Shown: piece after piece, positions 1-39,200 of the stretch
Position numbering within the stretch: position 1 is the stretch's first letter
Layout: each line of letters begins with the position of its first letter
Source: Azolla caroliniana
Lineage: Eukaryota > Plantae > Polypodiophyta
DNA length: 64,000 bases
Reading direction: 5' to 3'
NCBI GenBank assembly: GCA_043228905.1
Contig: JBHGNT010000002.1
Coordinates: 24,800,001 to 24,864,000, forward strand
Program-made: the position numbers and the translations under genes
Notes under the pieces: generated by a model
Told to the model about the DNA's origin: nothing
The model's database searches: none
The model's input: the letters and a program-made list of their open reading frames with translations, nothing else

Positions 1-1220
1 TTGGGCAGAAGCCGATCATGCCGATGGAACGTACGATCTCCTCATGGGCAACCGTGGACTGGAAAGACGAGATGAGCCGGGAGGAACTGTTGGCGGCGCG
101 CATACGACAGCTCGAGCGAAGACCGTAGGATGTGGAGCAGGCTGCGGGAAAGCTTCGGGTGGCAAGGACGAGGAACAAAGCCCGGTTCGACCGAACGCAC
201 CGGCTCCGACCAAAGAAGATCGAGGAAGGCGACTGGGTGTTAGTCTACGACAGCAGCCTCGACAACCAACACCGAGCAACACGGAAGTTCGCAAGAAGGT
301 GGTTCGGGCCTTACGTGGTACAAAGCGCCAACGACAACGGGACGTACCATCTGGCGGAACTCGACGACACGAGAATGGCGATACCGGTAGCTGGGAAGCG
401 GATCAAAGCGTTCAAGAAGCGTCACGACGACGAGCCAGATCCGGTTAACCTAAACCGCGACGACGAACGATCCGAAACCGAGGACGAACCGACGGGCGGG
501 GAATGAAGACTAGACCGGTTTTCTCCGTCCCAACTCAATTGGCGCATGCCGGTGGATGCGCGGTTAGGTGGGGGCGGATGTCGTGAAGAAAACCGTTCAC
601 AAGCGGAATCGGTGCACCGGAGCGTAGGAACCGGCTCTTCATGCACATACACCTTATGTTGTACATAAGAGAGAATTAGGTACATAGAAAATCCTAGGTA
701 GGTAGATTCGGTAGGTAGGAAGTTAATGGGAAACGGCTCCTTTCTTGCCTATAAAAGGAGGGAGACGGGGAGGAGAAAAGGGGGATCACGGTTAGAGAGG
801 ACGAAGTGTTGTCGGGTTGTCGGCCGAAGGCTTCTCTCACTTCCATACTCCGTAGCTTCTTCCTGTGTAGGTTTTCGGGAGGCTCGCGCTGCTCTGAGGA
901 ATGCCCGAGTGCTTCTGGCAGCACCTCCAACCTACTCCTTTCTTTCTGAGCGTTTACGAACAGGCATCGGCATCTGTTCGCCGGCCTGCTCGGTTGTAAC
1001 CGACTTCGTGCTTCTTGTTGTTTGTCCTGGTTAATATATATATACATACATTCGTGTCTCTCTGCGTCGGTGTCCCACTCGCGTCTTTGTGTCGAAGGGC
1101 CGTGTCCCTGTGAATCTACGCTCGCACGTAGTGGGTCTCTTTTCCTTTCTCTCTTGCTCTTCGGTACAGGACCCCCGAGGTCCCGCCTCATTCCACGCAT
1201 CCGCGAGGAATACCTCGACA
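1..1220 (+). mobile_element. Ty3/gypsy element G1, 3' end (integrase C-terminus, PPT, 3' LTR 579-1220)
   Basis: ORF ending at 506 has a gypsy integrase tail (KFARRWFGPYVV...NGTYHLAELD...VAGKRIKAF, GPY/F motif) with no chromodomain. PPT AGGTGGGGGCGGA lies directly before the LTR TGTCGTGAAG...CCTCGACA, which is followed by ACGG and copia coding sequence. Confidence 0.9.
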
Positions 1221-1224
1221 ACGG

Positions 1225-4200
1225 GGTCATGAAGTTCAGCAAAGGGAGCCTGATTGTGGCTCGGGCCCGGAAGGTAAACACGCTGTACCTGATGAATGCC
1301 TGGTTATGTCCGGAAGAAGTGAACGTGGCATCCAACACTGCCGGTGAGCTATGGCACAAGAGGCTATGTCATATGAGCGAGAAGGGGATGAAGAGGCTTG
1401 CAGACGACAACCTCATTCCAGTGAAGAACGTGCACTTAGAGAAGTGCACTGATTGTCTGGCCGGTAAGCAGAACCGGACCTCCTTCCGACCAAGGCCACC
1501 GATGAGACGTAATGCACCACTGGAGTTGGTGCATTCGGATGTGTGTCAAGTAGACACGAAGTCACATGCCGGAGCGCAGTACTTCGTGACGTTCATAGAT
1601 GACCACAACCGGAAGCTGTGGGCCACACCATTGAAGACGAAGGATCAGGTGTTATCCGTCTTCAAAGAGCTCCACGCGAGAGTCGAAAGAGAAACCGGCC
1701 GGAAGCTGAAGGCGGTTCGAGCAGACAACGGAGGAGAATACCGGGGGCAGTTCGAGGAGTACTGCCGCTCGAAGGGAATCCAGCTCGAATTTACCGTGCC
1801 GAAGACGCCGGAACTAAACGGACTGGCCGAGAGGATGAACCAGACCATAATGGAGAGGGTCCGGAGTATGCTAGTGCATGCAAAACTACCCAAGAAGTTT
1901 TGGGCTGAGGCACTGTCGACGACGACATATGTGATAAACAGATCACCCTCAGTACCCTTGGACGGAGACACGCCACAGAGAGTATGGACCGGTAAGGAAG
2001 TGTCCTACCGGCATCTGAGGGTGTTCGGGTGTCTCGCGTACGTGCATGTTGCAAAGGACCGGAGAGGAAAGTTAGATCCAAAGACCCGGCCATGCATATT
2101 CCTCGGTTACGGTGACGATGAGTTCGGCTACCGAGTGTGGAACCCGGTCGACAAGAAGGTATTCCGGAGTTGAGATATTATCTTCATGGAGGACAAGACG
2201 CTCGCCGACTGGGAGTCAGAGAAGAAGATAATGAACTCCGAGTTGACTGGTAAGGATAGACTCTACGATGAGCAGACCCAACCGGCAAGAGACCGGTTAG
2301 CACTCGAGGAACCAGCCGGTTACGGTGAGGATACCGAACCGGCAGAAGAAGAAGTAGAGGAAGGTTAGACCGGAACCGGCCAAGACTCCGAATCGGATTC
2401 GGATGAAGAGCAAATGGAGGAGCTGGTTACCGAAGCCCGAAGACGGAGATATCCTCTAAGAAAGAGAAGGGCCCCCCAGAGATTTCTGGATGCAGAGCAT
2501 GTTCTGCTGTCCGATGAGGGGGAGCCGGAAAGCTTCGAAGAAGTGAAGCAAGACACCCACAGCCGAAAATGGTTAAGTGCCATGCAGGATGAGATGGATT
2601 CCCTGCATGAGAACCATACGTACGAATTGGTGGAGTTGCCGAAAGGAAAGCGGGCACTCCGAAACAAGTGGGTGTACAAGTTGAAACCGGGAGATGCCGG
2701 CAACCCCCCGAGATACAAAGCCAGGATCATGGTGAAGGGGTTCCAGCAGAAGAAGGGCGTGGACTTCGACGAGATATTTACCCCGGTAGTAAAGATGACC
2801 TCCATCCGGATGGTGTTGAGTATAGCAGCAAGCATGGACCTCGAGGTAGAGCAGCTGGACGTGAAGACAACATTCCTTCACGGCGACCTCGAAGAGGAGA
2901 TCTACATGCAGCAACCGGAAGGATTTGTGGAGAAAGGGAAGGAGCACCTGGTATGCCGGTTGAAGAAGAGCCTGTACGGACTGAAGCAGGCTCCCAGGCA
3001 ATGTTTACCGGAAGTTCGACTCCTTCATGACCGATCAAGGGTACCACAAGACGCAGGCCGATCACTGCGTGTTTGTGAAGAAGTTCGAAGGAGGGGACTT
3101 CCTGATACTCCTCCTGTACGTGGATGACATGTTGATCGTCGGACGGGACCAAGTCAAAATACGGATGCTGAAGAAGGCTCTCAACCGAACCTTCTCAATG
3201 AAAGACTTGGGTCCGGCAAGAAAGATGTTGGGGATGCACATCATTCGGGACCGGTTAGAGAAGCAACTATGGGTGTCACGGGAGAAGTATGTAACAAAGG
3301 TGCTTCACCGGTTCAACATGTCAGAAGCGAAACCGGTCGGATCGACACTTCCGGCAAACTGCAGGCTATCCGGCAAACAAAGCCCGAAGACGAAAGCAGA
3401 GAAGGTGGATATGATTAAGATTCCATATGCCTCTGCCGTCGGGAGCTTGATGTACGCTATGGTGTGTACCCGACCAGATATAGGATACGCAGTCGGAGTG
3501 GTGAGCCGGTTCATGAGTAATCCCGGCAAGGACTATTGGAACGCAGTCAAATGGATACTCCGGTACTTGAAGGGCACTTCAAATATGTGTCTCCGATTCG
3601 GCTCCGGAAAACCTCAACTGGACGGTTTCACCGATTCGGACATGTCGGCTGATGTGGATACCAGCCGGTCTACATCCGGGTATGTGATGACATATGCAGG
3701 GGGAGCTGTTTCTTGGCAGTCGAGGCTGCAGAAGACGGTTGCATTGTCAACCACGGAGGCGGAGTACATGGCAGCTGTGGAAGCTGGCAAGGAAATCTTA
3801 TGGATGAAGGACTTCATCGGTGAGCTCGGTATACGGCAAGAGGAATACCGACTCTATTGCGACAGTCAAAGTGCCATCCACCTTGCTAAGAATGCGGCCT
3901 ACCATTCCCGGACGAAGCATATCCAACGGAGGTATCACTGGATCCGGGAAAGAGAAGATGACCAGTAGTTCGCACTGACGAAGATCCACACGGCCGAGAA
4001 CGGGTCAGATATGCTGACCAAAGTGCTGACACCCGACAAGTTGGATGCATGCCGGAAGAGAATCGGACTGGTAAGACACCCCATGCCGGAGTGAAGGGGG
4101 AGTCTGTTCGTCGGCACTGTTCTTCTCCCTTCCCATCCGGTATCGGCCTCAGCCAAAACGGTATGAGGAGTACCCGGCTACGGAGAGCCGGATGATACAG

Positions 4201-5682: not shown

Positions 5683-7605
5683 TGACAAGAATACACGCTC
5701 CCTAAGCACAACGCTCGGCCACAACCGAGTCTAGGATCAAACACAGAAAATGGGTAAGGTACGCACGACACAGTGAAGAGAAGACTACACAGGCAAACTA
5801 GGGAAAAACCACGATAGCCCACAGACTGCAAACTATCACTATATCACAATGTACAATAGTAAAGCACCGAGGCAACAACCTCGAGCTTGCTATCTTCGCC
5901 ACAAGCGGCGGTTACAACAGAGGCAACAACCTCTTCCTCTCTCTCTCTCTCTCTGTACACAGTTACGCACTCAAATCTTGCACCAACAAGAATGACAACA
6001 ATTACTATTACTAAGTTTGCCCTAAGTCATATTTATACTAATATGACTTTTCGGTTATTTACAAATATAGCCCCGATGGACTCTCAAAAAACATATTTAC
6101 AAATATGTCCCTTCATCCGGTGAGCGCTTCTCACCGGGCCTTCGCCATCCGGCTCTTGCCGGGTACTCGTCATCCGGTTCTCACTGGGCCTTCAACATCC
6201 GGCTCTTGCCGGGCGCTCGTCATCCAGTTCTCACCAGGCCTTCAACATCCAGCTCTTGCCGAGCGCTCGTCATCCTGTTCTCATCGGGCCTTCAACATCC
6301 GGCTCTTGTCGGGCACTCGTCATTTGGTTCTCACCGAGCTTTCAACATCCGGCTCTTGCCGGGCACTCGTCATCCGGTTCTCACCGGGTCTTCCTTGTCG
6401 GGTACTCGTCATCCGGTTCTCATCGGGTCTTCCTTGCCGGGTACTCGTATCCCATCCGGAGGGATCTGTTTCCTAACAAACTCCCCCTTCACTCCGGCAT
6501 GGGATGTGTTACTAGTTCGATCCGCTTCCGACATGCATCCAGCTTGTCGGGTATCAACACTTTGGTCAGCATATCTGACCCGTTCTCGGCGGTGTGGATC
6601 TTCATCAACGCGAACTCTCGATGTTCTACTTGCTCTCGGATCCAGTGATACCTACGCTGGATATGCTTCGTCCTGGAGTGATATGCTGCGTTCTTAGCAA
6701 GGTGGATGGCACTTTGACTATCGCAATAGAGCCGATATTCATCTTGCCTGATACCGAGCTCTCCGATAAAGTCCTTCATCCATAATATTTCCTTGCCGGC
6801 TTCCACAACCGCCATGTACTCTGCATCCGTGGTTGACAACGCAACCGTCTTCTGCAGCCTCGACTGCCATGAAACAACTCCCCCTCCATATGTCATTACA
6901 TACCCGGATGTAGACCGGCTGGTATCCACATCAGCCGACATATCCGAATCGGTAAAGCCGTCAAGTTGAGGTTTACCGGAGCCGAATCGGAGACACATAT
7001 TCGAAGTGCCCTTCAAGTATCGGAGTATCCATTTGACCGCGTTCTAGTGCTCCTTGCCGGGATTGCTCATAAACCGGCTCACCACTCCAACTGCGTATCC
7101 TATATCCGGTCGGGTACACACCATTGCGTACATTAAGCTCCCGACGGTAGAGGCATATGGAACCTTCATTATATCAGCCTTTTCTGCTTTCGTCTTCGGG
7201 CTTTGCTTACCGGATAATCTGCAGTTTGCTAGGAGTGTCGATCCGATCGGTTTCGCTTCTAACATGTTGAACCGCTTAAGCACCTTTGTCACGTATTTCT
7301 CCAGTGAAAGCCACAATTGCTTTGTTGGCCAGTTCCGGATGATATGCATCCCAAGCATCTATCTTGCTGGACCCAAGTCTTTCATTGCGAAAGTTCGGTT
7401 GAGAGCCTTCTTCACCATTCGTATTCTGGCTTGGTCCCGTCCGACGATCAACATGTCTCCACGTACAGAAGGAGTATCAGGAAGTCGCCTCCTTCAAACT
7501 TCTTCACAAACACGTAGTGATCGGCCTGCGTCTTGTGGTACCCTTCATCGGTCATGAAGGAGTCGAACTTCCGGTACCATTGTCGGGGAGCCTGCTTCAG
7601 TCCGT
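5683..7605 (-). mobile_element. Ty1/copia element C, 3' part (RT-RNaseH remnant, PPT, 3' LTR 5683-6478), nested in B
   Basis: RT/RNaseH ORFs at 6489-7358, PPT at 6481-6490, LTR TGTTAGGAA...CTTGTCA with U3 tandem repeats. Interrupted at 7605 by a gypsy LTR. Confidence 0.9.
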
Positions 7606-7670
7606 TGTCGCGTTGTTAAGCGCGTACGTGTAGAAAGGGGCGGGACCACGGGGGTCTTGGACCGAGGAGG

Positions 7671-7708
<38 letters not shown>

Positions 7709-8190
7709 TTCACCGACACGTAGAAGAGAGAAAGAGAGATATAGAACGTAACACTTAATTATAATGACAAGAGATTACAAACTCCGACAGTTACAACTGA
7801 CAAAGCGGCGACGGACCCGACACGGGGACCCTACTCACGCACACCGACGACAGTCTCACGACTCCAAGAAACAAAAGGGGAAAGGGAGTGACTCTGCTGG
7901 AAGCACACGGGCTATCCACGAAGCAGAGGCAGCGACCTCCCGACACCCGTAGAGAGCGACGATTCGAGTCGAAGTGAGAGCGCCCCTCCTTCCGTTCTGC
8001 AGCCCCCGCTTTTCTTCTTCCTCGCCCACGATACCCATTTTCCCTTGTCCTCCCTTTATTCCATGTCCCTCTCACCGGGATACACACAATCCCCCCCTAA
8101 TAAATGCGTGCGGCTTAGTATTTACATCCACCGGTTCGTGTACAAAATATGACGTCACGCGTCCATCCGTGTAAGGGCCGGTTTACGCGC
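7606..8190 (-). mobile_element. Gypsy LTR G2 (5'-interrupted), inserted in copia C
   Basis: 3' end CCAAGACCCCCGTGGTCCCGCC...AACAACGCGACA matches the G4 LTR end at 38823-38875. Followed by ACGG of the copia RT. Confidence 0.8.
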
Positions 8191-8805
8191 TGTCGAGGTA
8201 TTCCTCGCGGATGCGTGGAATGAGGCGGGGCCTCGGGGGTCTTGTACTGAAGAGCAAGAGACAAAGGAGAAGGGAAGGGACCCACTACGTGTGGGCGTAG
8301 ATTCACAGGGACACGGCCCTTCGACACAAAGACGCGAGTGGGACAGCGACACAGAGAGACACGAATGTATGTATTAACAAAGACAACAACAAGAATACGA
8401 AGTCGGTTACAACCGAACAGGCCAGCGAACAGATGCCGATGCCTGTTCGTAAACACACAGAAAGAAAGGACTAGGTTGGAGGTGTTGCCGGAAGCACTCG
8501 GGCATTCCTCAGAGCAGCGCGAGCCTCCCGAAACCTGCACAGGAGAAGCTATGGAGTTTGGAAGAGAGAGAAGCCTTCGACCGACAGCACGACAGCACTT
8601 CGTCCTCTCTGATTCCGCGATCCCTTCCTCTTCCTCGTCTCCCTCCTTTTATAGGCAAGAAGGGAGTCGTTTCCTATTAACTCCCTACCTACCGAATCTA
8701 CCTACCTAGGATCTTCTATGTACATCATAAGGCGTACGTGCATGAAGAGCCGGTTCCTATGCTCCGGCGCACCGATTCCGTTTGTGGATGGTTTTCTTCA
8801 CGACA
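8191..8805 (-). mobile_element. G1-family gypsy LTR with mismatched flanks (recombinant LTR)
   Basis: Homologous over its full length to 579-1220. Flanked by ACGG (copia A) on its 5' side and GCGC (G2 LTR) on its 3' side. No PBS or PPT is adjacent. Confidence 0.88.
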
Positions 8806-10807
8806 CCGTTCCGGATGCTACCCGTGTAGCCTTCATCATCTAGCCGACCGGCTGATATCAGGTTCAGACGAACCTCCGGAACGTGTCAAACATCCTTTAG
8901 CAGCAACTTGCATCCGGTTGGTATTGACAGCCACACGTCTCCTATGCCGATAATTCGGCATGTACCTTCATTCCCCATCCGGACACAGCCGTGGTCACCA
9001 GCTGAGTAGGATGAGAAGCATTTCCGGTCCGGGGTAAGGTGGAACGACGCTCCGGAGTCTACCACCCAGGTCATCTCGTCGCCGGCAAGGTTTATTTCAC
9101 TCTCCTCGGTGATGAGCATCAACTCTTCTTCGCTTGCCGCGATTGCCGTCGTTCCCTTCCGGTCCAGCCCCCTCCGGTCTTTACTGTTCCGGTCCGGGGT
9201 TTGCTTTGAGTCTGTACCGTTGGTTTCCTTGTCTTTACGGAAATGCCGACAGTTCTTTTGGAAGTGTCCCAGCTTGCCGCAATAGAAGCAAGTAGGCCTC
9301 CCCCTTGACTTTGACCGTGTCCCCGACTTCTCCCGGTTCTAGGGACTACGGTTTCTGTGTCTTCCGCGTTCTAATTCGGTAAGGAGCGCTTTGGAGTCGG
9401 AGCTCGTATCTTTATCCTTCCGACGCGCCTCCTCATCTAGCAAGCTCGACTTTACTCTTGCTAGGGATAACCGCTTTCCTTCCGGCCCGGCGTTGCCCAA
9501 AGTGACAACCAACGTCTCCCAGCTATCCGGGAGGGAACCGAGCAAGAGTAGCGCTAGTACCTCGTCGGCAAGAGGTACTTCCAATGACGTTGCCTGGTGG
9601 GTCAGCCCTTGGAAGGCATTCATGTGCTCCGCCATGCTGGAGCCATCTTGGTACCGGAGTCTTACTAGCTTCCGGAATACCGAAACCTGGTTAACAGCAT
9701 TTTTGTTTTGGAACATTATGCCGATCTTCTCCCAGAGCTCATGAGCCTTGCTCTCTTCATTGAAGTTGTTGTACAGGCTCATGTCGATGAAGCACCGTAT
9801 GTACGCCGTTGTCTTCATGTGCATCACCTCCCATATCGTGGCGTCGATTTTGTCCAGTCTCTTGTCCCCGAACTGAACCGGCAGCCAGAGGTCTTTAACA
9901 ACGAGCACGTCCCTCATCTTCGACTTCCACACTGAATAGTTGGAGCCGGTGAGCTTGAACATGCCGCCAAACGATTCGTCCATTTTCTGTGTCGATTTTG
10001 CTCTAATACCAATTGACGGGAAACCAACGTTCCTTATGCGCAACGCTCGACAACAACCGAGCTTAGAGTGATACACAGAAAAAAAAAATGGGAAATAGAA
10101 CACGACACAAAGGAGAGGAAGAGTACACAGGAGGTTTACGTGGAAAAAAAAACCCCAAACTAGGGAAAAAAAAACCACGGCAGCCCACAGGCTGCAAACT
10201 GTCACTATGTATGAATGTACAAAACGGTGAGTTCACGGAGGCAACGACCTCGGACTCACGATCTTCGCCACAGGCGGCGGTTACAACAGAGGCAGTGACC
10301 TCTTTCTCTCTCTCTCTCTCTCTGTACAACGTTACGTGATGTCTCTGCTTCTTGCACCAACAAGAAAAATAACAACAACCTAATATTAGTTTGCCCTAAG
10401 TCATATTTATAATAATATGACTTTTCGGCTATTTACAAATATAGCCACAATGGGCTCTCAGAAACATATTTACGAATATGTCTCTTCCTCCGGTTCATAC
10501 CGGGCCTGCACCATCCGGCTCTCCGTAGCCGGGTACTCCTCATCCGGTTCATACCGGGTCTACACCATCCGGCTCTCCGTAGCCGAGTACTCCTCATCCG
10601 GTTCACACCGGGTCTGTATCATCCGGCTCTCCGTAGCCGGGTACTCCTCATACCGTTTCGGCTGAGGCCGATACTGGATGGGAAGGGAGAAGAACAGTGC
10701 CGACGAACAGACTCCCCCTTCACTCCGGCATGGGGTGTCTTACCAGTCCGATTCTCTTCCGGCACTGTTCTTCTCCCTTCCCATCCGGAGGGACCTGTCT
10801 CCCAACA
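8806..10807 (-). mobile_element. Ty1/copia element A, 5' half (5' LTR 10014-10807, PBS, gag from 9983, zinc knuckle, protease)
   Basis: LTR 10014-10709 is nearly identical to 4105-4797. PBS TGGTATTAGAGC (tRNA-Met type) at 10000-10011, gag MDESFGGMFKL, protease WVVDSGASFH. TTATC lies at 10808-10812. Confidence 0.92.
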
Positions 10808-21115: not shown

Positions 21116-21526
21116 TAAGGCAAAACACAAAGAGAGACAAAGAGAGCTTAAAAACAGAGATAAATGACAGTATATTACATTAACCAAAATACTTCCAGTA
21201 GTAACTAAGTTACAAGGGGTTGGTTTAAATACCAACTATACTAGGGCAAGTGCCATTTCTACTATTTACAAAACTAGCCTGGTATGACCATGAGCTAGTG
21301 TGAAACCTATTACTATGGGAAGTTGACTTCCACTCTCAACACGCCCCTTTGAACACAACTTCCATCTGTCGAAAACTTGTTTCGGTTCGGTCTTCGGAAT
21401 TCGGCTTCCGGCATTCGTAATCCTCGAACTGGATTGTTTGGCTTTTCGGCTTCGTGCTCGATTCGATTAACTATGTATTGCGTACTCATGTATCGTTGCA
21501 TGTTGCATATCGTTCTGTCATTACGT

Positions 21527-23250
21527 TGTCGTGAAGATTCCGGGCCCTAGGCCTCGACAACCAGCATAGGTCTACGCGTAAGTTCACGAAACGATGGTTC
21601 GGGCCATACGTGCTAATCGGCGTCAACGATAACGCGATGTATCATCTTGCGGAGCTCAACGGGACCCAAATGACGACCCCGGTGGCCGGGAAGCGGATAA
21701 AGGCCTTCAAGAGGCGGAGTGAGGTGGAACCAGACCCATGAGCCAAAAGCGCCGGTTCAGAAGGGGAGGGCGAGTAGCATATGGACCGGAATCCCTTACT
21801 AAAATCGTTGCCCGGCACATAACAGAGTATGTGCGGTTTAGTGGGGGTGGATGTCATGAAGATTCCGGGCCATAGGCGGAAACAAGGTGAAACGCGCGGG
21901 AGCACTGGTGTGCACGAGTGCACACCCCTAGTGAATTAAATAGTGTAAGTACTAGGCATAGGTAGAAGGAAGTGTACTAGGTAGTTAAGGCATTAATAGG
22001 GATTCAAACATCACGTAAGTAGGGAGAGTTACGAGGAGGGTGAATCAGGGGGGAGAATCTAGGAAGGGAAAGCGACAAGTCATGAATGCCTTGTAACGGT
22101 CGCTCCTTGTGCTATAAAAGGGGTGACCTTTGATTGTTTGCAGGGATGTCATTTTTGGGGAAGTAATCAAGAGGGGAGAAAAGGAACAGAGAGGAGACCA
22201 GACGAGGAGTCCTACGACAGATCACCGGAAGGCACTTCCCATGCTCGCGTCAGACGCCCGAGTGCTCCCGACCAGGGATCGACCTTCTGCGTGCCTACTC
22301 CACTTCCTATCTAACTACTATAGAGCATACGCTCGACCACCAGCACTGATCCAGTTGTAATCACCCACAGCGCTATGCACATATATTGATTAATAGAAAC
22401 TTATCTACCGAACACAAGTTGTTCTTAGCATCTCTGTCTGCGCCTGTGTCTACACACGATCTGACAAGAATACACGTTCCCGTTGAACAACACTCGGCCA
22501 CAACCGAGGATAGAATCAAACACAGGAAACGGGTAAGGAAGGCACGACAGAGTGAAGAGAAGAGTACACAAGATGTTTACGTGGAAAGCCCAAACTAGGG
22601 AAAAACCACGGCAGCCCATAGGCTGCAAACTATCACTATGTTACAATGTACAACAGTAAGGCACCGAGGCAACAACCTCGAGCTTGCTATCTTCACCACA
22701 GGCAGCGGTTACAACAGAGGCAACGACCTCTTCCTCTCTCTCTCTCTGTACACTGTTACACTCTCAAATCTTGCACCAACAAGAAATGACAACAACCTCT
22801 TTTCTGAGTTTGCCCTAAGTCATATTTATCCTAATATGACTTTTCGGCTATTTACAAATATAGCCCCGATGGACTCTCAGAAAACATATTTACGAATATG
22901 TCCCTTCATCCGGTGAGCACTCCTCACGGGGACTGCATCATCCGGCGCTTGCCGGGTACTCCTCATCCGGTTCTCACCGGGTCTTCCGTAGCCGGGTACT
23001 CCTCATCCGGTTTCGGCCTCGGCCGAGATTGCTCATCACCACTGTTCGACTCAGAGCCCATCCGGAGGGACCTGTTTCCTAACACGATCCTCTTACACTA
23101 TCTCTCTCGTTTCGCTAACCTTCTCTGTTTAAACCGCGGTCTTAGGGCTCACGTAGATCACAGACTCTTCCTCCTCATTTCTTGATTCCTTGGTTCAAGA
23201 CCCCCGCGGTCCTGCCCAACTTCTACGCATCCGCGAGGATTTCCTCGACA
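21527..23250 (+). mobile_element. Internally deleted gypsy element G3 (~26-bp 5' LTR stub, integrase tail, PPT, 3' LTR 21852-23250)
   Basis: TGTCGTGAAGATTCCGGGCC at 21527 is repeated (TGTCATG...) at 21852. Integrase tail LDNQH...WFGPYV...VAGKRIKAF. Ends CCTCGACA. Flanks are ACGT and ACAT. Confidence 0.85.
22462..23084 (-). mobile_element. Copia solo LTR (C-like family) inside the G3 LTR, TSD CGATC
   Basis: Homologous to 5683-6478. CGATC at 22457-22461 and 23085-23089. No PBS or PPT. Confidence 0.92.
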
Positions 23251-25755
23251 ACATCCATGTAGCGTGTAGTACTCCCCCTCAAGCTCAGTAATGTGGATGT
23301 CATGAGACCAAGGTCCGATGCAAATTGCCCGAGCTTGTCAACTCCTAAGGCCTTTGTAAAAGTATCAGCAATCTTGAGGTGCGTACTGATCTGTTGTAGA
23401 TCGATTTCTCCGGCCTATACTCGCTCGCGAATGAAGTGGTAGTGCACTTCGATGCGTTTAGTTCGTGCATGGAAGACGGGGTTCCAAGCGAGGTAGATGT
23501 TGCACATGTTGTCGTAGTATAGGCAAATTGGATCCGTAATGGGAATGCCCAGATCCTTTAGTATGCACTTGAGCCATACGGCTTCACATGCGGCGATTGT
23601 CGCGCCCCTGTATTTGGCTTCCATGCTCGACAGTGTGACTATTGGCTGCTTCTTATTGCTCTAGGAGATCGCTTCGCTGCCGAGGGAGAAGATGAATCCG
23701 GATGTGGATCATCTATCCGCTTTGTATCCTGCCCAGTCCGCGTCTGTGTATCCTTCAAGTCGAATGGTCGTATTTGACTTATACATAATGTCATGATCCA
23801 TTGTAGTGCTGACATACCGGAGTATCCTCTTAGCGCAATCGAGATGAGGGTTTCGCGGATTTTGCATGAATTGGCTAAGTAGGCCGACCGAATAACTAAG
23901 ATCGGGCCGCGTAATGGTGAGATAGATTAAGCTGCCAATTAGTTGTCGATACTGAGTAAGTTGTAGAGCAAGTTTGCATTCTTTCATTCTGAATTTGTAG
24001 AGCAAGTTGAGAACGTAGTGCCATTGAGAGATCATTATTCCAACTGGTGTCTGAATTACTTCAAGGCCTAGGAAGTAATGGAGCTCGTGCAGGTCTTTCA
24101 TCCACATAAAGGATGATGACAATCGGGCTATCCGACTCATTTCTGATGTACAAAGAAGTATCAGATTTTGACATTCAAAATCTGATCTAATAAAGATATT
24201 GCGTGATCTTCGAGTGTCACGCACATGGTGCTTGTTTGAGGCCGTAGAGAGGCTTCTTGAGGCGGCATACTACGTGCGGATGATTACGTGATTCAAATCC
24301 AGGTGGTTGAATCATATATACTTCCTCTTCTAATTCTCCTTGGAGGAAGGCGTTTTTCACGTCCATCTGGTGGAGGTGCCACCCTTTTTCTGATGCAAGA
24401 GCAATTACGGTCCACACGGTGGTCATCTTTGCCACCAGGGCAAAGGTCTCTTCGTAGTCTATGCCATGCATTTGCGCCTATCCTTTCGCAAGTAGTCATG
24501 CTTTGAAGTGATTTACGGAGCCGTCGGCATTGTGTTTCACTTTGTAATTCCATCGACAACCAATCACTTTCTTGTGCGGCGTTTGGGTGACGAGATCCCA
24601 TGTCTCGTTTCTTCATTCATCGCATCGACCCATCACGGATCCTTTACGGCTTCGGAAAGCATCTCCGGCTCCTGTACTGACGCTACCTTCATCATGAAGG
24701 TGTAATGGTACGCCATATAATCGTTGTAGCCAAAGTGGTTAATGGGATTCTTTTAACGGGTCGATCGGCGGAGATTCTCATTTGCTGATACTAAGGCTTC
24801 CTTTGCTCCATCTGTCTGGATGATAGGAATGTCTAGGCCTTCGAACTCATTATCAAGGAAGTGAGTCGACGCGTTGTCGATTGGATCTTCGTATTCGAAC
24901 ATCTTGGCCTTCCCTTTGTCGAGTTTCGGACTCGGTCAAAATGTGCTTTGGTCACTCGGGGGCTCCCATGGTCCACTAAGCCGTGTCGTAATCTCCATTT
25001 CGGCAGATTCCGAGTCGAGCAGATTTAGAGTTGAAGTTGTTTCTTGTGCGTACAAAGATGCGGACTCGTCGAAGACTACGTCTCGACTTGTTCGAGCTTT
25101 GCGGGTAGTTAGGTTGTAGCATTTGTACCCCTTCTGTTCAAGTGAGTATCCTACGAGGATACATTTCTCCAACTTCGGGTCGAGCTTTTGTCGTGTATCA
25201 TCGGGAATATTTATGTAGGCGATAGAGCTGAAAATGCGGACGTGTGATAAGTTTGGCTTCTTTCCAAAGAACTTCTCACGAGGAGTTACGTCGTGTACTC
25301 CCAAGGTTTTGCACCTATTCATGAGGTATACAACCGTGTTCCCCGCTTTTGCCCAATACGATTTCGGCAGGTTCTTCTCATTCATCATAGCCTGTGTGAC
25401 TTCTACTATGTGCCGGTTTTTACGCTCAGCTATGTCGTTTTGCTGAGGTGTGTGACGGTATGAGAATTCTCGTTGGATTCCTTCCTTTTGGAGATACGCC
25501 GTAAACTCATCCGAAAAGTATTGTTTGCCTCCATCCGATTGAAGGCAGCGTACGTGCCGACCCGTAGTTTTTTTTACTTCGGCCTTGAACCTCTGGAAGT
25601 GTACAAACACTTCGCTCTTCTGTCTCATCGGGTAGATCCAGGTGTGCAAAACTAATCATCTTAGATCATATGATAGATCTTGTTGTAAGCTTAGATTCAA
25701 GCCATAGATTGTCAAAATCAGACATCGTATGACCAAGTAATGGCTAAAATAAACT

Positions 25756-25850: not shown

Positions 25851-28811
25851 TTCACATCCATAGAGAGGCCAATATTGACTCGCAGGACTAAGTACAAAAG
25901 TTATCTTAATGTGTGTCTCCTTCTTAAGAAGGGATATTCATACTTTGAAGCACCAATGTCTCAATGTGTGAATAAGACATACACATATGAGCTCAACCTT
26001 CTAGGTGTTCTCTTTAGTGTGATACTCAAGTCATTACCCCCTGAGTCTTAATATATCATCATAGTTTTCATGAATTGCACTATATGCAGAGCATGTAAAA
26101 AGCAAGTAATATTCATCCTCGACTAGCCTTTCCTTGCATACCTTACATGTATTTATTGTTGACTGATTTTGATTCCATAATGCAACTTCAATACCTAAGT
26201 TGTGTGATCAAGTGTGGAGTGTTAGGGCTCTATGAGAGTTAATACATACTTATGTTAGTAATGATGTGTGAAAAGTAGCGTGCGGAAGCAAGTACAAAGA
26301 CAGAACAGAAGGGAGAACACTCAGGTTTAATGGAGAGCTTAAGCTTACATAGTATACGCAGGGGAGACCGAGAGAGACACCAAAAAAGAGAATAATGATT
26401 AACAGACAAAAAAGAACCAAACATATATGTGTTCAATGAACACTTTGTACAAGCCCTAGAAGGACTAATTGGAGTACTGACAGTACTTCAATGCTCATTA
26501 AGAGCTCCTACACTAACTCCCAAATATATTCCTCACGGAATATCTTTCCTAACGGCCTAACCGATCGGTCCCAACCGATCCGGTCCTCGGCTTCTTCAGC
26601 CAATCCGGCCGCTGTTGAGCTTGTCTCTCAACACTCCCCCTCAAGCTCAACTTGAGGCTCTTCGAGATCTTCACAGCTCCGGTTCCTCCTGGCTTCACGC
26701 CTCGCTCGTGCTCCTCGACCTGTTCGACTCTGCGCGCTTCGACCCTTACGGTCGGCTTGTCTGCTCATGTGACCCTTATCAGCTCTTCTGTTGTTGCGGT
26801 GTCAACACTTCTTCTACTGCCTTTTCTTCCGCTTGGGCCTCGGTTGATTCAACGTGTCTGAATCGAACATCCGAACCGACTCGGCTACTTCCGATCGGTT
26901 TTCGCTCTCGTCCGAGTTGGCTATCTCCAACTCGTCTTCGGTCTTCTTGCCCTCGATGGTGTCATCTTCCCCATACGTGGTTGGCTTCGGCTCTCTCCTT
27001 CGGCTACTCCCCATCTGTCCGCTCCCAGACTTTTCCACGGGTCCTCCCTCGGCTTCTTCAGCCGATCCGAAGTCGAACTCGACAACCGAGTCAACTGACT
27101 CGGACTCGGTGTCGCAGTCTCTGCTCCTTTCCTGCTGCCTTGCTTGGTCATTCGGGACTGTTCTCCCCCTCAAGTTTGGCACGTCGAGGTGACGCAACCC
27201 GAGCGCACCTGAGAATTGCCGCAACTTGTCCAGACCAAGAGGCTTTGTGAAGATGTCGGCAACCTGCCGATCCGTCGGCACGTACTGAAGTTCGACTTCT
27301 GCGGAAAGGACACGCTCACGGACGAAATGGTAGTGCACCTCAATGTGCTTGGTCCGTGCGTGGAAAACGGGGTTCTTCGCAAGTTGGATGCTGCTGAGGT
27401 TATCGCAGTAGATCGTCGTTGGATCGGACACCTCCTCTTGCAGGTCCTTAAGTAGCCGCTTCAACCATATGGCTTCGCATGTCGCGACAGCCGCTCCTCG
27501 GTACTCAGCTTCGGTGCTCGACAGTGCAACTGTCGGCTGCTTCTTACTGCTCCACACGATCGCGGCACTCCCGAGGGAGAACGCGTATCCGGACGTGGAT
27601 CGGCGATCGGTGGCATTGCCAGCCCAATCAGCATCGGTGCAGCCGACTAACCGCGTGGCTACACCGGTCCGATATAGCAGTTCCCGGTCCTTAGTTTTGT
27701 TGACATACCGAAGTATGCGTTGCGCACACTGATGGTGCTCCTCGGTAGGTCGCGCCATGAACTGACTAATCACTCCGACCGGATAACTGAGGTCGGGTCG
27801 GGTGATGGTCAAGTATATGAGGCTTCCGACAATTTGTCGGAACCTCGTCGAGTCGCATACCTTTCCCCTATCGGGACGAAGCTTGACGGTTCTGTCTAGA
27901 GGAGTCGAGACAGACTTACAGTCGGCCATCCCGAATTTGAAGAGCATACTCATCACGTAATGACATTGACTGATCAATATGCCTTCAGGGGTACGGTGTC
28001 GTGAAGAATTTCGGCTAGAGGAAGAAACCGGGAAACATTGTGTACATCGGCGGGGTGCAGCATGTGTGCTCACCCGTGTACATTTAGTGTGAATAACGAG
28101 GGTGCCTTTATGGCGCCGAAGAGTAGTCAAGTCGGGACAGACGATCCCATGTAAGTCAAGATTTATCCCACATTGTAACGCATCCCTCTCTTTGTTCTAT
28201 AAAAGGAAGGGAGCGCCCTTTGTGAAAGGGTTGCCCATTTTGCGTTAGAGGGTATACCGTTAGATTTAGGGTTAGTTACATTTCTTCTTCTTCTTCTTCT
28301 TCGTCTTTTCCCCCTTCGTGTTTTGCTTAAGGTTTGCTTCGGCTCGGCCTCCTGTGCAAGACCCCGCTCGGCGCGACGAGCCGAGAGCTCCCCGACGGCG
28401 GCTTGACAGCAGACGACTGTTGTAACCTACCTTGGTCCGGCTCGAAGCCGGGAATGTATTCTTCCTCTTATATATATATATATACATTTGCGCCTATCTG
28501 TGTATATTCGCGTCTCTGTTGGTGTCGGGTGCTTCCCCCTTTCCTGCGTTTCCTGTACATAAGGGCGTGAGTCGGGTCAGCCTCTGTGTGTGTGTGTGTG
28601 TGTGTGTGCGTGTGTGTGTGTGCGTGCGTGCGTGAGTCGGTGTTTAGCGCGCGCTCCCTCTCTTTCTCTCTCTCTCTTCGGTTGCCTCCGGTGTGTTTCT
28701 GGGATGCCCCGGAAACGGTGAAGTACGACTTCCTACGCTCTGTCACTCCCTAGTCCAAGACCGTCGTGGTCCCGCCTTTCTCCACGCACATGCATAACAA
28801 CACGACATCTT

Positions 28812-28829
28812 TGGTGAACCCGACGTGAA
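28812..28829 (+). promoter_or_regulatory. Primer-binding site complementary to tRNA-Trp
   Basis: TGGTGAACCCGACGTGAA, 4 nt after the LTR, is the reverse complement of the plant cytosolic tRNA-Trp 3' end (TTCACGTCGGGTTCACCA), as recalled from memory. Confidence 0.85.
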
Positions 28830-28844
28830 AGACGAAAAGGGAGG

Positions 28845-29912
28845 ATGGAGTCGGAAGACGACGACCTCGCGGTGATGGTGGCCGAAGTGGTGTTGGAGTC
28901 AGCACGAGTGCTAATGAGGCGAGAAGCAGCGCAACAAGCGGTTGAGCGAGTGGTCAAAAGAGTCGGCCGTTTCAACGGGGACAAAGTCCCATCTTACTTG
29001 GGAGCCTACAATGCGGATATGGAGGAGCGTGGCGTAGACGAGGCGTTGAGGCTGGAGTTCTTCTGTCGGGTCGTAGCTGTCCGGATGCATGCGGAAGTAA
29101 AGGAGCTCCGTGAGGCTCATAGTTCGTGGGAGGCCTTCGAAGAGGTGCTCCTGAAGGCATACGGAGGACGGCGGAAGAGCTGGGGACGACACGACTTCGA
29201 CCAGTGGGTAGTGTCGGCAAAGACCCACCGGGGCGCGACGAAGGCGTTCCGAGAGTTCGAGCGACGGCTTGCTTGGCTCCCGGAGCGGGAACAAGGTTTG
29301 GTGGGGACGGACAAGGTGCTATTGTTCGTCAAGTCGATCGACCAAGCGGAATGGGAGGCCATCGGGATTGAGCTTGAAGATGATGACAGAGCGAATGGGC
29401 TTACGGAGGACTGGTCGAAGGTCGGAAGGGTGTGCCTACAGCTAGACAATGAGCGAGCCGAGAAGGCTAAGAGGAAGGCGTGCGACGACATGCCATCACA
29501 GCGGGAAGAGGCCGAACGGCAAAGAGAGCCGGCAAGGGTCGGCGTTGGGGCCATGATTGCGGAGGCGTACGCAGCTCTCGAGGCGATGCTCGAGGAAGAG
29601 GAAAGATCAAGGCCGCAAGCCGAGACTGAGGAGACAGACTTGCCCCACGCGACGGCGGAAGATCGGTACCACGGTACCACGGTACCACGGGAGAGGGCGC
29701 GAAACAAAACGCCCTCTCAACTTGTGGAGATAGAACGGCCAAGGACGAAGCCGAGATACAGATCGCGGAACCGGATAGTTGGGACCAGCGGTTTCAAGCG
29801 TGTCAGCCCGAAACCCCGGAAATCGGAGAAGCAAGCCCAGGCGGGGCTTGCGCGATCGGTGAAAAGACGACCGCCGACCACGAAGAGTCGGTGGCTACGG
29901 ACAAGGGCGTAA
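28845..29912 (+). CDS. Gag-like protein of G4 (probably frameshifted after ~260 aa)
   Basis: ATG lies just after the PBS. Helical capsid-like region RFNGDKVPSYL...SWEAFEEVLLKAY...AFREFERR. The C-terminus is low-complexity. Confidence 0.65.
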   Translation: MESEDDDLAVMVAEVVLESARVLMRREAAQQAVERVVKRVGRFNGDKVPSYLGAYNADMEERGVDEALRLEFFCRVVAVRMHAEVKELREAHSSWEAFEEVLLKAYGGRRKSWGRHDFDQWVVSAKTHRGATKAFREFERRLAWLPEREQGLVGTDKVLLFVKSIDQAEWEAIGIELEDDDRANGLTEDWSKVGRVCLQLDNERAEKAKRKACDDMPSQREEAERQREPARVGVGAMIAEAYAALEAMLEEEERSRPQAETEETDLPHATAEDRYHGTTVPRERARNKTPSQLVEIERPRTKPRYRSRNRIVGTSGFKRVSPKPRKSEKQAQAGLARSVKRRPPTTKSRWLRTRA

Positions 29913-33900: not shown

Positions 33901-36283
33901 CCTGGAACTGCCCCCGGTATTCCCCTCCGTTATCCGCTCGTATCGCTTTCAGCTTCTTGCCGGATTCCCTTTCCACTCTCGCGTGGAGTTCTTTGAAGAC
34001 GCACAACGCTTGGTCCTTTGTCTTCAACGGTGCCGTCCACAGCTTCCGGCTGTGATCATCAATGAATGTTACGAAGTACTGGGCTCCGCCATGTGACTTC
34101 GTTTCTACCTGACACACATCAATGTGCACCAACTCCAATGGTGCGCTCCGTCTCGTCGGTGGCCTTGAGTGGAAGGAGGTTCGGTTCTGCTTACCAGCCA
34201 GGCAATCGGTGCACTTCTCCAGGTGCACATGCTTCACTGGGATAAGGTTGTCTTCTGCAAGCCTCTTCATCCCCTTCTCACTCATGTGGCACAGTCTCTT
34301 GTGCCACAGCTCACCGGCAGTGTCGGCTGCCACATTCAGTTCTTCCGGACATAACCGGGCATTCATCAGGTACAGTGTGTTGACTTTCCGGGCCCGAGCC
34401 ACTATCAGGCTCCCCTTGCTGAACTTCATTACGCCGTTCCGGATGCTACCTGTGTAGCCTTCATCGTCTAGCCTCCCGGCCGAAATCAGGTTCAATCGAA
34501 CCTCCGGAACGTGTCGGACATCCTTCAGCAGCATTTTGCATCCGGTCGGGGTTGTCAACCACACGTCTCCTATGCCGGAAATCCGGCACGTACCTTCATT
34601 TCCCATCCGAACACAGCCATGCTCACCGGCTGTGTAGGATGAGAAGTATCTTCTCTCCGGGGTCAGGTGGAACGATGCTCCGGAATCGACCACCCAGGTC
34701 GTCTCATCGCCGGCAACGTTTAGCTCACCTTCTTCGGTGATGAGCATGATTTCTTCCTCACTTGCCGCGAGTGCCGTTGTTCCTTTCCGGTCCTGTCCTC
34801 GCCGATCCGAACCATTCCGGTCCGTGGCTCCCCGGTATGCACCGTTTCTCTCCGGTGACTTCTTCGAATCGGTGTTGTCGGTTCCATTGTCTTTTCGGTA
34901 ATGCCGACAATTCTTTCGGAAGTGCCCCGGCTTCCCACAGTGGAAGCATGTGGGCCTTCCTCTTGACTGCGACCGGGTCCCCGACTTCTCCCGTCTTTGC
35001 GGACTCCGGTTCCATTGTCTTCCCCGATCCGATTCGGTAAACAACATCTTCGGGTCGGAGGCCGGTTCCTTATCTCTCCGACGCGCTTCTTCATTCAAAA
35101 TACTTGTCTTTACCGTTTGTAAGGACAAGTTATCTTCGGTGCAGGAGGTGCTGAGAGTCACCACCAAGTTCTCCCAGCTTTCCGGCAATGTACACATCAG
35201 GATGATGGCTTGCATTGCATCCTCCAACGGGAACTTGATCGCCGCAAGCTGATTCACGAATCCCATGAACGTGCTTACGTGTTCCACCATACTCTCGCCG
35301 TCCCGGTACTTGAGGTTCACTATCTTCCTCATCAGGGAGGTCCGGTTCAACGCATTCTTCCTCTCGTAGAGGCCCGACAGCTTCTTCCACATCTCATATG
35401 CGTTGGTGTCGTTCGCCACATGTTGTAGGACGCTTACATCGACATATTGTCGGATCGTCGCTACGGCTTTCCGGTTCAGGAGCTTCCACTCCGACTCAAG
35501 TACCCCCTTCGGTATTTCCGACCTGTCAATCGGTTCGTACAGGTCCCGAACAATCAGAAGATCCTCCATCTTGATCTTCCAGTCGGCGTAATTCTGCGCA
35601 TTCAGCACCATCATCCCCGGCTGCCCGCTGCCGCCGCCTTCCATTTTCTGCAGCAGTTCGCTCTGATACCAGTTTGTTGGGAATCAACGCTTCGATTCAC
35701 CTTCTTCCTTTCGGCCACAACCGAGTAATCGCGGATCAATGCAGCAGAAAATAGAAACCAAAAGAGAGAAACACACGAGTACACAGGGATTAACGTGGAA
35801 AACCCTAGATGGGAAAAACCACGGGAGTACAAGACTCCAAACAACACTATACAAGAGAAGTATACAATGACGAGCTCCAAGGCGACGACCTTGAGCTCGC
35901 TGTCCTCGCCACAGGCGGCGGAAATACACAGAGGCGTCGTCCTCTTCCTCTCTCGCGCTCTATCTCTCACTCTGTCTCACGGCTGCTCCCTCTTCACTCC
36001 TCTTGAGTGGAAAAACAGAAAAATGATAAGCAACAACAACACTGTTTGCCCTAAGTCATATTTATACTTATATGACTTTGGGCTATTTACAACTGTAGCC
36101 TCAGGGGCCCATAGCGAACATATTCACGGATATGTCCCTGCATCCGGATCGCTCTCCGGGTACATTCGTCATCCGGTACCGAAACCGGGGTCTTCGTCAT
36201 CCGGATCCGAAACCGAAACCGGGCTTGTCGGCATTCATCTCCGATATCCGACCATCCCATGAGAAGGGACCGTAATCCCAACA
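30952..36283 (-). mobile_element. Young full-length Ty1/copia element I (609-bp LTRs 30952-31560 and 35675-36283; TSD GTTGG)
   Basis: GTTGG at 30947-30951 and 36284-36288. PBS TGGTATCAGAGC at 35660-35671, PPT present. The LTRs differ at one position that I could find. Confidence 0.97.
31571..35644 (-). pseudogene. Copia I gag-pol polyprotein with a single in-frame TAG (33383-33385)
   Basis: The 753-aa and 566-aa ORFs are in the same frame. All domains are present (CCHC, DSGAS, HHCC, DDE, YVDD, RNaseH). Confidence 0.93.
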
Positions 36284-39200
36284 GTTGGTACCACGGGAGA
36301 GGGTACGGAGCAAAACGCCCTCTCAGCATGCGGAAAAGGACGACCCGGGACAGGGTCAGGGAGACAAATCGGACGCCCAAGGAGGATCCTTCACACCGGT
36401 TCTAGAGACTTCGGCAGTCGGCAACGCGGATGACGTAAGACCAAGATACTGACGGTGGCGGCGGGGTGACGAAGGGAAAAAGGGCTACGGATGGGCGGTC
36501 TACGGAGATCCTCACACCGACCCGGCGGTCGGCCCGAGAGCCGGCGTGAGTCCTATAGGGAAGATCGGTGGCGGCAGGAGAACGTGGTAGGACGGCAGGA
36601 GGCGACGAACGGCAAGGAGGTATCAGGTCGGCGAGGCGGCCACGAACCAAATCGGACCTTCCGGCAAGGTCGGTGGGCGTAAGGAAGTTCGGTCCTACGG
36701 GATCCCCACACTTAACCAGAGACTCCGGCAGTTCGGCCAACGTGGCAACATGAGACCGAGAGAGAAAGTTGGTGGCGGCAAGAAACGGGACCCGACTACG
36801 CGGAAGACACGAGGAGAGTAGGGAGGGACTCAAACAAAAGACACCCGAGTTTCGGCAAGCATAGAAACGGAGTCCGGTCCTATGGGACCCTCACACCGAT
36901 CCGGAGACTCCGGCAGTTCGGCCAACGTGGCAACGTGAGACCTAGGGAGAAGGACAGTGGTGGCAGGGAACGGGACCCGACGACACGAGGTTTCGAAAGG
37001 AGCCGGTAGGGGCAAACACGGGGAGGTGTGTCAGGCCGGAAAGGCACACTCGGGACGGAATAAGAGTCTCGCAAGTGGCCATCGCGGGCCGGATCAAAGC
37101 GTGACTACGGGACCGTGTTCGGCATGGGCGGTGCCAACTGAAGGGAGCGAAAGACGGCGCAAGGGAGGTGCCGAGAACGAGGTGACAAGTGCCTAGTGGA
37201 CTGCACAGGGTCGGAGTCAGGGGATGGCAAGAGAGGCCAGAGGAGGATCCTCCACACTCGCTTCGTAGATCTCGGTAGCTCCGTCGAAGCAGCGAAGATT
37301 GACACGGCAAGCCGGGATGACAAGCTGGTGGGGGCGAGGGGACGATGGCAAGCGGAAGACTCAAGACCTGTTCTAGCAGCACGAAGACGGGAAGGGCCAA
37401 GCGGGCTACTACGGGGTGTTCCTCAGATGCGGAGAACACTAGTACGCGGGTGAGCGGCGATGCACGATCTAGCCGGGAAAGAGGCCGACAAGGCGTGAAA
37501 TGAACCGGAGTATGGCATAGGCGGTGCCAAACAACGGATGAGCGTATGTGGCGCACGGAGGTGCTGGAGTGGGAAGGCGAGCGCGGAGACAGTTTGCGCG
37601 GTTCGGAGGTAGCGCGAAGAAGGCCAGAAAGGGATCCTCCACGCCATTCCGGAGACCATGGCGGTTCGAGCCGGCACGGCAATGTAAGACCATGGAGAAG
37701 GAAGGTGGCGGCGAGAGGATGAGGGCAACGTGAAACAACATGGGACGGCAATCAAGACGACGCGAATGACCAACGGAGGCCAAGCGGGCCGCTACGGGCG
37801 TTCCCCAAGCGGAGGACATCGGGCATACGGTGGGGAGCGGGGCGTTCATACGGCCGAACAAGGGCCAACGGAAGTACGCGTACTACGGAGATCGCGGCAG
37901 AGGACCCATCGATGGGTCGAACAAGCCTACAGGGAGGTGAGCGCGAAGGAAGAACCGAAGTCGACAGATCAAACCGGCTTACCGAAACTGGGATGCGGAT
38001 TACGTAAGACCGGTTTCTCACCGGCCGAAATCTCTCACCCTTCAACCAAATTTGGCACATACCGGTGGACGTGCAATTAGGTGGGGGCGGATGTTGTGAA
38101 GAATTTCGGCCAGAGGCGGAAACCGGGAAACATTGTGTACATCGATATGTGTGCTCACCCGTGTACATTTAGTGTGAATAACAAGGGCGCCTTTATGGCG
38201 CCGAAGAGTAGTCAAGTCAGGACAGACGATCCCATGTAAGTCGGGATTTATCCCACATTGTCACGCATCCCTCTCTTTGTTCTATAAAAGGAAGGGAGCG
38301 CCCTTTGTGAAAGGGTTGCCCATTTTGCGTTAGAGGGTATACTGTTAGATTTAGGGTTAGTTACATTTCTTCTTCTTCTTCTTCTTCTTCTTCTTCTTCT
38401 TCGTCTTTTCCCCCTTCGTGTTTTGCTTAGGGTTTGCTTCGGCTCGGCCTCCTGTGCAAGACCCCGCTCGGCGCGACGAGCCGAGAGCTCCCCGACGGCG
38501 GCTTGACAGCAGACAACTGTTGTAACCTACCTTGGTCCGGCTCGAAGCCGGGAATGTATTCTTCCTTTTATATATATATACATTTGCGCCTATCTGTGTA
38601 TATTCGCGTCTCTGTTGGTGTCGGGTGCTTCCCCCTTTCCTGTGTTTCCTGTACATAAGGGCGTGAGTCGGGTCAGCATGTGTGTGTGTGTGCGTGCGTG
38701 AGTCGGTGTTCAGCGCGCGCTCCCTCTCTTTCTCTCTCTCTCTCTTCGGTTGCCTTCGGTGTGCTTCTGGGATGCCCCGGAAACGGTGAAGTACGACTTC
38801 CTACGCTCTGTCACTCCCTAGTCCAAGACCCCCGTGGTCCCGCCTTTCTCCATGCACGCGCGTAACAACGCGACAACGGATCACTTCGATCCCGAGGAAG
38901 TAATGAAGGTCTCCCAGATCCTTCATGTCGAACGATGCCGCAAGTTGAAGCTTCACGCAACTGATTTCACCTAGGTCGGCGTCGGTGATGACCAAGTCAT
39001 CAACATATAGTAGAATACTAACCGGTCCGAGTCGACCTTTTTGGATGAACAGGGAAGAGTCCGATTTTGAGGTGACGAAGCCCATCCGACGCAGTTGTTG
39101 CGTGATCTTCGCGTTCCAGGCACGCGGGGCTTGCTTCAGTCCGTAAAGGGACTTCTTCAGTCGGCATACTGCCGAGGAGTTCGTTCCGAAGTGAAATCCG

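What the first reader, a model, noticed from the sequence alone, without database searches (positions are those of the whole stretch)
579..38879. Gypsy lineage that appears to integrate specifically at CpG-centred 4-bp targets inside other retroelements
Seen: five independent target sites of related gypsy LTRs (TGTCG...CGACA) are all RCGN 4-mers. They are ACGG (G1 in copia A; 1221-1224 and 8806-8809 minus), ACGG (G2 in copia C; 7602-7605 minus, one junction only), ACGG (G4 in copia H; 27993-27996 and 38876-38879), ACGT/ACAT (G3 in copia F; one CpG-decay change) and GCGC (8187-8190, one junction only). Host frames are restored by removing exactly 4 bp where both junctions are visible. The five copia TSDs in the same DNA (TTATC, CTCCG, CGATC, TGATG, GTTGG) are 5 bp with no consensus. 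Established: most plant LTR elements make 5-bp TSDs with weak preference, and heterochromatin targeting is best known for chromodomain integrases. The G1 integrase tail has GPY/F but no chromodomain. Inference: this tRNA-Trp-primed non-chromovirus group (possibly Phygy/Selgy-related) reads CpG or methyl-CpG directly. That would steer it into CpG-rich TE nests and away from the AT-rich gene island. With CpG at roughly 7-8% of positions here, 5 of 5 by chance is very unlikely, but n is small.
Basis: partly seen in the sequence, partly recalled or inferred. Interest (0 to 1): 0.85.

Follow-up and report, generated by a model that had tools for sequence, protein, structure and literature searches.

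The report
Fern Phygy-like retrotransposons insert at CpG
A family of jumping genes in what is likely a fern inserts almost only at four-base sites with CG in the middle (ACGT most often), a habit already published for the moss Phygy lineage it likely belongs to, and the extra idea that it senses methylation to aim at other jumping genes was not supported.

Summary
All five window targets are at the stated places, and removing 4 bp restores two copia reading frames. A search of public contigs gave 64 further distinct LTR 3' junctions. 58 have CG at the centre against 3.8% background, and 5 of the other 6 are TG/CA, which CpG decay can explain. The motif is NCGN with ACGT favoured (26 of 58), not RCGN. 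The habit is already published: Neumann et al. 2019 give Phygy as 4-bp NCGN TSD (100% of 186), mostly tRNA-Trp primed, with no extra domain. This family fits those traits; placement in the Phygy tree could not be tested. The host is likely a fern, and my searches found no report of Phygy in ferns. Steering into CpG-rich nests is not supported: 31 of 64 flanks are as CpG-poor as the gene island, and 23 of 65 lie near a recognisable repeat (a lower bound). Methyl-CpG reading is untested. This scan noted a similar NCGN habit in another, likely fungal, genome (e1-10582392, unchecked). Verdict: new member of a known kind.

The parts
3..506 (+). Integrase C-terminal tail with GPY motif (WFGPY), one in-frame stop, no chromodomain
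   Evidence: Translation; 75% identity to the end of full pol P0017; no Pfam family
561..578 (+). Polypurine tract
   Evidence: Sequence directly before the LTR; same tract before other copies
579..1220 (+). G1-type LTR, likely a hybrid; 3' end flanked by copia A
1221..1224 (+). TSD copy ACGG in copia A
7602..7605 (-). Target ACGG of G2 in copia C (one junction)
   Evidence: sibling copia copies carry the uninterrupted site; empty-site contigs
7606..8190 (-). 3' part of the G2 LTR; its first four bases (8187-8190, GCGC) are the target of a G1-type copy (one junction)
8191..8805 (-). G1-type LTR, likely the reciprocal hybrid: 5' end in copia A, 3' end in the G2 LTR, no PBS behind it
8806..8809 (-). 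TSD copy ACGG in copia A
21523..21526 (+). TSD copy ACGT of G3
21527..23250 (+). G3: internally deleted copy (LTR start fused to integrase tail, PPT, 3' LTR from 21852 carrying a copia solo LTR)
23251..23254 (+). TSD copy ACAT of G3 (one transition from ACGT)
27993..27996 (+). TSD copy ACGG of G4 in copia H
27997..28807 (+). G4 5' LTR
28812..28829 (+). Primer-binding site, 4 nt behind the LTR; tRNA-Trp by recall
   Evidence: the same site follows 21 of 96 outside LTR ends; tRNA identity not confirmed by a tool
28818..29912 (+). gag-like ORF of non-autonomous G4 (no pol match inside G4)
   Evidence: 26% identity to the N-terminus of Riccia polyprotein P0055, E 2e-12
38092..38875 (+). G4 3' LTR
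   Evidence: 1.9% non-CpG difference from the 5' LTR
38876..38879 (+). TSD copy ACGG of G4

Best explanation
These are copies of a Ty3/gypsy family, likely of the Phygy lineage, that insert with a 4-bp duplication centred on CG, likely because the integrase itself reads the CG step of the target. Shown: the 4-bp duplication at two frame-tested sites, the central CG, ACGT favoured, T avoided at the first position and A at the last, and no TA-centred site. Inferred: a two-fold symmetric integration complex kinks the target at its central pyrimidine-purine step, as described for 4-bp retroviral integrases, and base contacts narrow that step to CG. TG/CA centres would be later CpG decay. Nesting in other elements would follow from where CpGs are, not from a tether or a methylation sensor.
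For: 58 of 64 distinct outside 3' junctions are NCGN (58 of 65 before dropping L044, a bacterial sigma-70 locus), against 3.8% CpG in the same flanks and 0-4 of 65 at seven other offsets. Both LTR types show it: 16 of 18 and 42 of 46. 5' junctions: 10 of 15 CG, 2 TG. ACGT is 26 of 58 against 6.1% of background NCGN; T is first in 3 of 58 against 37%. Nearest-neighbour LTRs show 176 of 986 CpGs as TG/CA (67 of 74 loci), enough to explain 5 TG/CA centres. Serrao 2015 (PMC4422553, abstract and section 6) reports central YR selection, and T and A disfavoured at the first and last TSD positions, for 4-bp viruses. Ty3 and foamy-virus integrases are the closest solved relatives by sequence. Phygy row: 4 bp NCGN 100%, tRNA-Trp 81%, no extra domain. 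CG-centred targets also occur in the Drosophila ZAM subgroup; that flies have almost no CpG methylation is recalled.
Against: No Phygy reference sequence was on hand, so membership rests on traits. The outside junctions are mostly one-sided. Of 6 loci with both LTR ends and no PBS, 1 has an exact 4-bp duplication, 2 have one mismatch and 3 do not match, likely chimeric contigs or recombinant LTRs. 3 of 15 5' junctions and 1 repeated 3' junction (L040 group) are not NCGN or its decay product. 95 of 96 loci come from one series of related assemblies, and short contigs may favour some flanks. The predicted pol model was too poor to name contact residues (mean pLDDT 56).
Confidence: 0.72

Rival explanations
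1. The integrase prefers methylated CpG and is thereby steered into silenced retroelement nests.
For: 5 of 5 window targets lie in other retroelements. At least 23 of 65 outside flanks lie within 150 nt of a recognisable repeat with a small library. No host-gene Pfam family was found among 208 flank ORFs: hits were retroelement domains, one weak DUF and the bacterial locus. TG/CA decay shows target CpGs are methylated at some time. Moss Phygy copies nest in Tcn1 (PMC6911290 passages), and liverwort Phygy is enriched at centromeres (PMC12885004 passage).
Against: The window is mostly nest: 2822 CpGs against 368 in the island. 31 of 64 flanks are CpG-poor, some at 24-35% GC, and 42 of 65 show no nearby repeat by my tests. 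Decay can follow insertion. CG-centred targeting is known in insects and in Ginger1 with no methylation link in the passages read. CpG-poor flanks could still be old methylated repeats, so this rival is weakened, not excluded.
Confidence: 0.15
2. The family reached the NCGN habit independently and is a separate non-seed-plant lineage rather than Phygy.
For: Phygy was defined from one moss. No named Physcomitrium protein appeared among the listed homologues; the named ones were Riccia and Adiantum. CG-centred 4-bp targets recur in unrelated groups.
Against: TSD length, NCGN motif, likely tRNA-Trp primer and lack of extra domains match the Phygy row together and no other row of the table. A relative (L129) has a different primer site, tRNA-Thr-like by recall, which is Phygy's second listed primer.
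Confidence: 0.12
3. The pattern is chance or an artefact of how LTR ends were called.
For: n = 5 in the window, chosen after the fact. At site 8806 the host sequence resembles the LTR start.
Against: The outside set was chosen by LTR sequence alone, and CG is enriched at one offset only (binomial p about 2e-74).
Confidence: 0.01

Closest known systems
Phygy non-chromovirus Ty3/gypsy lineage (Neumann et al. 2019, PMC6317226; passages, section 9 and supplementary file 3 read)
   Same: 4-bp NCGN TSD, likely tRNA-Trp primer, no chromodomain, no extra RNase H, short element
   Different: Host is likely a fern, not Physcomitrium; the one near-complete autonomous relative spans about 7.3 kb (published range 7.7-10 kb); the ACGT bias was not stated in the parts read
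Ginger1 DNA transposons (Bao et al. 2010, PMC2836005; passages read)
   Same: Gypsy-type integrase with GPY/F motif; 4-bp CG-centred TSD
   Different: DNA transposons with inverted repeats; prefer CCGG (75%) and CCGT/ACGG (24%), whereas this family prefers ACGT
Drosophila ZAM-subgroup errantiviruses (review PMC5408687; passages read)
   Same: Sequence-specific palindromic target; the review lists TATA, CGCG and ATAT for its three subgroups, and CGCG for ZAM is my reading plus recall
   Different: Insect lineage; integrases lack GPY/F
4-bp-stagger retroviral integrases such as PFV and MLV (Serrao 2015, PMC4422553; abstract and section 6 read)
   Same: Central YR step selected; T and A disfavoured at the first and last TSD positions
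   Different: Their preference is weak (about 63% above random); here about 90% of sites are CG

Membership tests
Phygy | 4-bp TSD with NCGN motif | tested here: met
   Frames restored at 4 bp; 58 of 64 NCGN
Phygy | PBS for tRNA-Trp (81%) or tRNA-Thr (6%) | tested here: inconclusive
   One conserved PBS at 28812-28829 and behind 21 of 96 LTR ends; Trp identity is recalled; a tool check found 0 tRNA genes in 31 loci
Phygy | No chromodomain | tested here: met
   No chromo family in P0017, P0026 or the window tail, nor among the precomputed families of 120 listed homologues
Phygy | No extra domain (no aRH) | tested here: met
   Only RVT_1, RT_RNaseH, RT_RNaseH_2, Integrase_H2C2 and rve in P0017 and P0026
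Phygy | Length 7.7-10 kb, coding region filling the interior | tested here: inconclusive
   About 7.3 kb between LTR ends on the contig behind L004 and L005, only parts fetched; window copies are deleted or non-autonomous
Phygy | RT-RH-INT groups with the REXdb Phygy clade | not testable with these tools
   No Phygy reference sequence available; the tree of 31 integrase tails only shows the window copy among unnamed close relatives, with Riccia copies further out
Selgy | tRNA-Ala PBS, about 5 kb, no NCGN motif | tested here: not met
   Table row against NCGN and the 7.3-kb autonomous relative; that the PBS is not Ala is recalled
TatI | aRH domain (100%), with 4-bp TSD and tRNA-Trp | tested here: not met
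   No additional RNase H family
Chromoviruses | Chromodomain after the integrase | tested here: not met
   The tail ends about 60 residues after GPY in an acidic stretch

The most novel reading that the evidence does not exclude
A vascular-plant retrotransposon integrase reads methylated CpG directly, with no chromodomain or host tether, so the host's own silencing mark aims new copies into silenced DNA and even into the target duplications of earlier copies (seen at L028 and L054).
Probability: 0.15. Interest if true: 0.75.

Novelty: new member of a known kind. Interest (0 to 1): 0.3.

Why it matters
It extends the one plant LTR lineage known to have a sequence-specific target from a moss to a likely fern, and sharpens the motif to an ACGT-favoured palindrome. 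Because the family is abundant here and intact pol relatives exist (P0017, P0026), it offers material for an open question: how a gypsy integrase reads a CG step, and whether cytosine methylation changes that. If methylation mattered, it would be a direct DNA-mark route to heterochromatin targeting.

Tried and rejected
No whole genome is held, so no genome-wide TSD set or background could be made. The LTR-end pattern found 0 matches in viral contigs, and P0017 found no relative there. Genome contigs gave 2 relatives among 35 candidates, without target junctions. Confirming the PBS as tRNA-Trp from viral contigs failed: 0 tRNAs in 31 loci. Laying contigs on 7540-8870 was dominated by empty-site copia contigs. 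On 27975-28050, the loose-end majority before the LTR start ended in CCGT in X1 (7 contigs) and X3 (12), in ACAT in X8 (3), and was the PPT in X7 (2); agreement among the flank contigs was about 0.5, so this is no count. Cluster look-ups named no moss protein. The Atlas search gave only generic RT clusters. The AlphaFold model of P0017 (pLDDT 56, pTM 0.34) was not used and no fold search was run. The idea that targets resemble LTR ends, suggested by site 8806, was rejected: positions +5 to +12 show no such pattern apart from T at +7 in 25 of 58 against 27% background. L044 was dropped as a chance bacterial match; the L040 group (4 contigs, one flank) was kept as a miss.

Full report
Check of the observation. 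The window holds a retroelement nest (about 1-42.8 kb) and a gene island. Keeping a single 4-nt copy restores the reading frames of copia A and copia H, and removing five bases breaks them. The five copia TSDs are present and 5 bp long. Local CpG density makes 5 of 5 unlikely (about 9e-7, post hoc).

One structural correction. The LTRs at 579-1220(+) and 8191-8805(-) share the copia A duplication but face opposite ways, as do the two halves of copia A. They differ at 54 of 610 positions along their whole length, 7.3% outside CpG, whereas the host's LTRs are 97.3% alike. The LTR at 8191-8805 has no PBS behind it. The simplest reading (inference) is an inversion between a solo LTR in copia A and the 3' LTR of a second copy that sat at GCGC inside the G2 LTR; a misassembly is not excluded. 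G4's LTRs (1.9% non-CpG) fit their host copia H (1.5%).

Independent test. No genome was held. A degenerate pattern for the LTR 3' end matched 4 window sites and none in 100 shuffles, and matched 96 stretches of metagenome contigs. 21 were followed by the PBS; the other 75 gave 65 distinct flanks. Their second and third bases were CG 58, TG 3, CA 2, GG 1, TC 1. The TC case (L044) is a bacterial sigma-70 locus and was dropped, leaving 58 of 64. CpG in the same flanks is 3.8%, and CG at seven other offsets is 0-4 of 65. 5' junctions gave 10 of 15 CG, 2 TG and 3 other; two of these (L028, L077) repeat sites already counted. ACGT makes up 26 of 58 against 6.1% of background NCGN. First bases are A36 C14 G5 T3 and last bases T37 C10 G7 A4, so the motif is a symmetric NCGN, not RCGN. 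No site is centred on TA. Between nearest LTR neighbours 176 of 986 CpGs read TG/CA, so the five TG/CA centres fit later decay. Limits: 95 of 96 loci are from one series of assemblies. Of 6 both-ended loci without a PBS, only L077 has an exact duplication, 2 have one mismatch and 3 disagree.

Where it lands. With retroelement proteins, the window and the other loci as library, 23 of 65 flanks lie within 150 nt of a repeat, both copia and gypsy and including its own family. This is a lower bound. Pfam on 208 flank ORFs found retroelement domains and no clear host gene. 31 of 64 flanks have CpG at or below 3.1%, against 2.8% of CpGs in the window's nest and 69% in its island; the median is 3.3% against 7.0% and 2.3%. 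The family therefore does not confine itself to CpG-rich nests. Short-contig assembly may bias this sample in either direction, and CpG-poor flanks may be old repeats.

What it is. The integrase tail finds 88 longer relatives. Full pol P0017 has 96% identity to the tail upstream of LTR locus L005. It holds RT, RNase H, zinc finger and integrase core only. Named relatives come from Riccia and Adiantum. The intronless ClpC in the island has Adiantum and Ceratopteris as best named hits, so the host is likely a fern. G4 carries a gag-like ORF and no pol.

Comparison with what is known. Neumann et al. 2019 (PMC6317226; passages, section 9 and supplementary file 3 read) state that Phygy elements have an insertion preference for NCGN. 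They tabulate 186 elements as 4 bp (100%, NCGN), tRNA-Trp 81%, no extra domain. Jedlicka 2019 (PMC6911290, passages) confirms 4-bp TSDs for Phygy and its nesting in Tcn1. Phygy is also named in a liverwort genome (PMC12885004, passages). Selgy and TatI each fail a defining trait. Passages of PMC9002660, PMC7466625, PMC13469084 and PMC8282616 added nothing on targets. Searches for Phygy with fern (3 papers, 2 read in passages, 1 seen as a listing), Phygy alone, REXdb terms (listings) and NCGN showed no report of Phygy or NCGN targeting in ferns. The library holds open-licence papers only. CG-centred 4-bp targets are also reported for Ginger1 (PMC2836005, passages; lead from note e1-10582392) and a Drosophila errantivirus subgroup (PMC5408687, passages).

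Mechanism. Shown: stagger of four, central CG, symmetric flanking bias. From established work (PMC4422553, abstract and section 6): 4-bp integrases bend the target at a central YR step and disfavour T and A at the TSD edges, as seen here. Inferred: flexibility alone would also admit TA, which is absent, so base-specific contacts likely select CG. Whether methylation helps, hinders or is ignored is untested, and the structure model was too weak to name residues.

Verdict. The feature is real and strongly supported, and it is already described for Phygy. What is new is the likely fern host, the ACGT bias and a hint of re-insertion into earlier duplications. New member of a known kind; interest 0.3.

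Noticed in passing
L028 about 247-250 and L054 about 790-793: An LTR start is separated from another LTR end by ACGT alone (tail-to-head in L028, head-to-head in L054), as if new copies landed in the target duplication of an earlier copy; n = 2 among about 78 junctions.
   Followed up: partly
window 579-8805: Likely inversion of about 7 kb between two 87%-alike gypsy LTRs, leaving the halves of copia A on opposite strands.
   Followed up: partly
window 8806-8809 and 16288-16304: The copia sequence right after the ACGG target resembles the gypsy LTR start (9 of 10 bases in a sibling copy); not general in other flanks.
   Followed up: yes
window 21527-21560: G3's LTR start is fused to the integrase tail next to a stretch that mimics the LTR end (CTCGACA), giving a miniature copy that still has a TSD.
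   Followed up: no
window 51117-53921: Intronless 934-residue chloroplast ClpC gene; best named hits are fern proteins at 87-88%.
   Followed up: partly
L128, L129: Relatives of this integrase (about 60% identity in the tail) sit in a cyanobacterial genome bin, probably plant contamination; L129 has a different PBS, tRNA-Thr-like by recall.
   Followed up: partly
L040, L050, L053, L090: Four contigs share one non-NCGN, non-PBS sequence behind the LTR end; perhaps an amplified derivative that lost its PBS.
   Followed up: no
window 30952-36283: Very young copia (LTRs differ at 1 of 609 bases) nested in G4, with one in-frame stop in its polyprotein.
   Followed up: no
window 45440-48151: 903-codon ORF with hydrophobic start and 102-nt repeats, not identified.
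   Followed up: no
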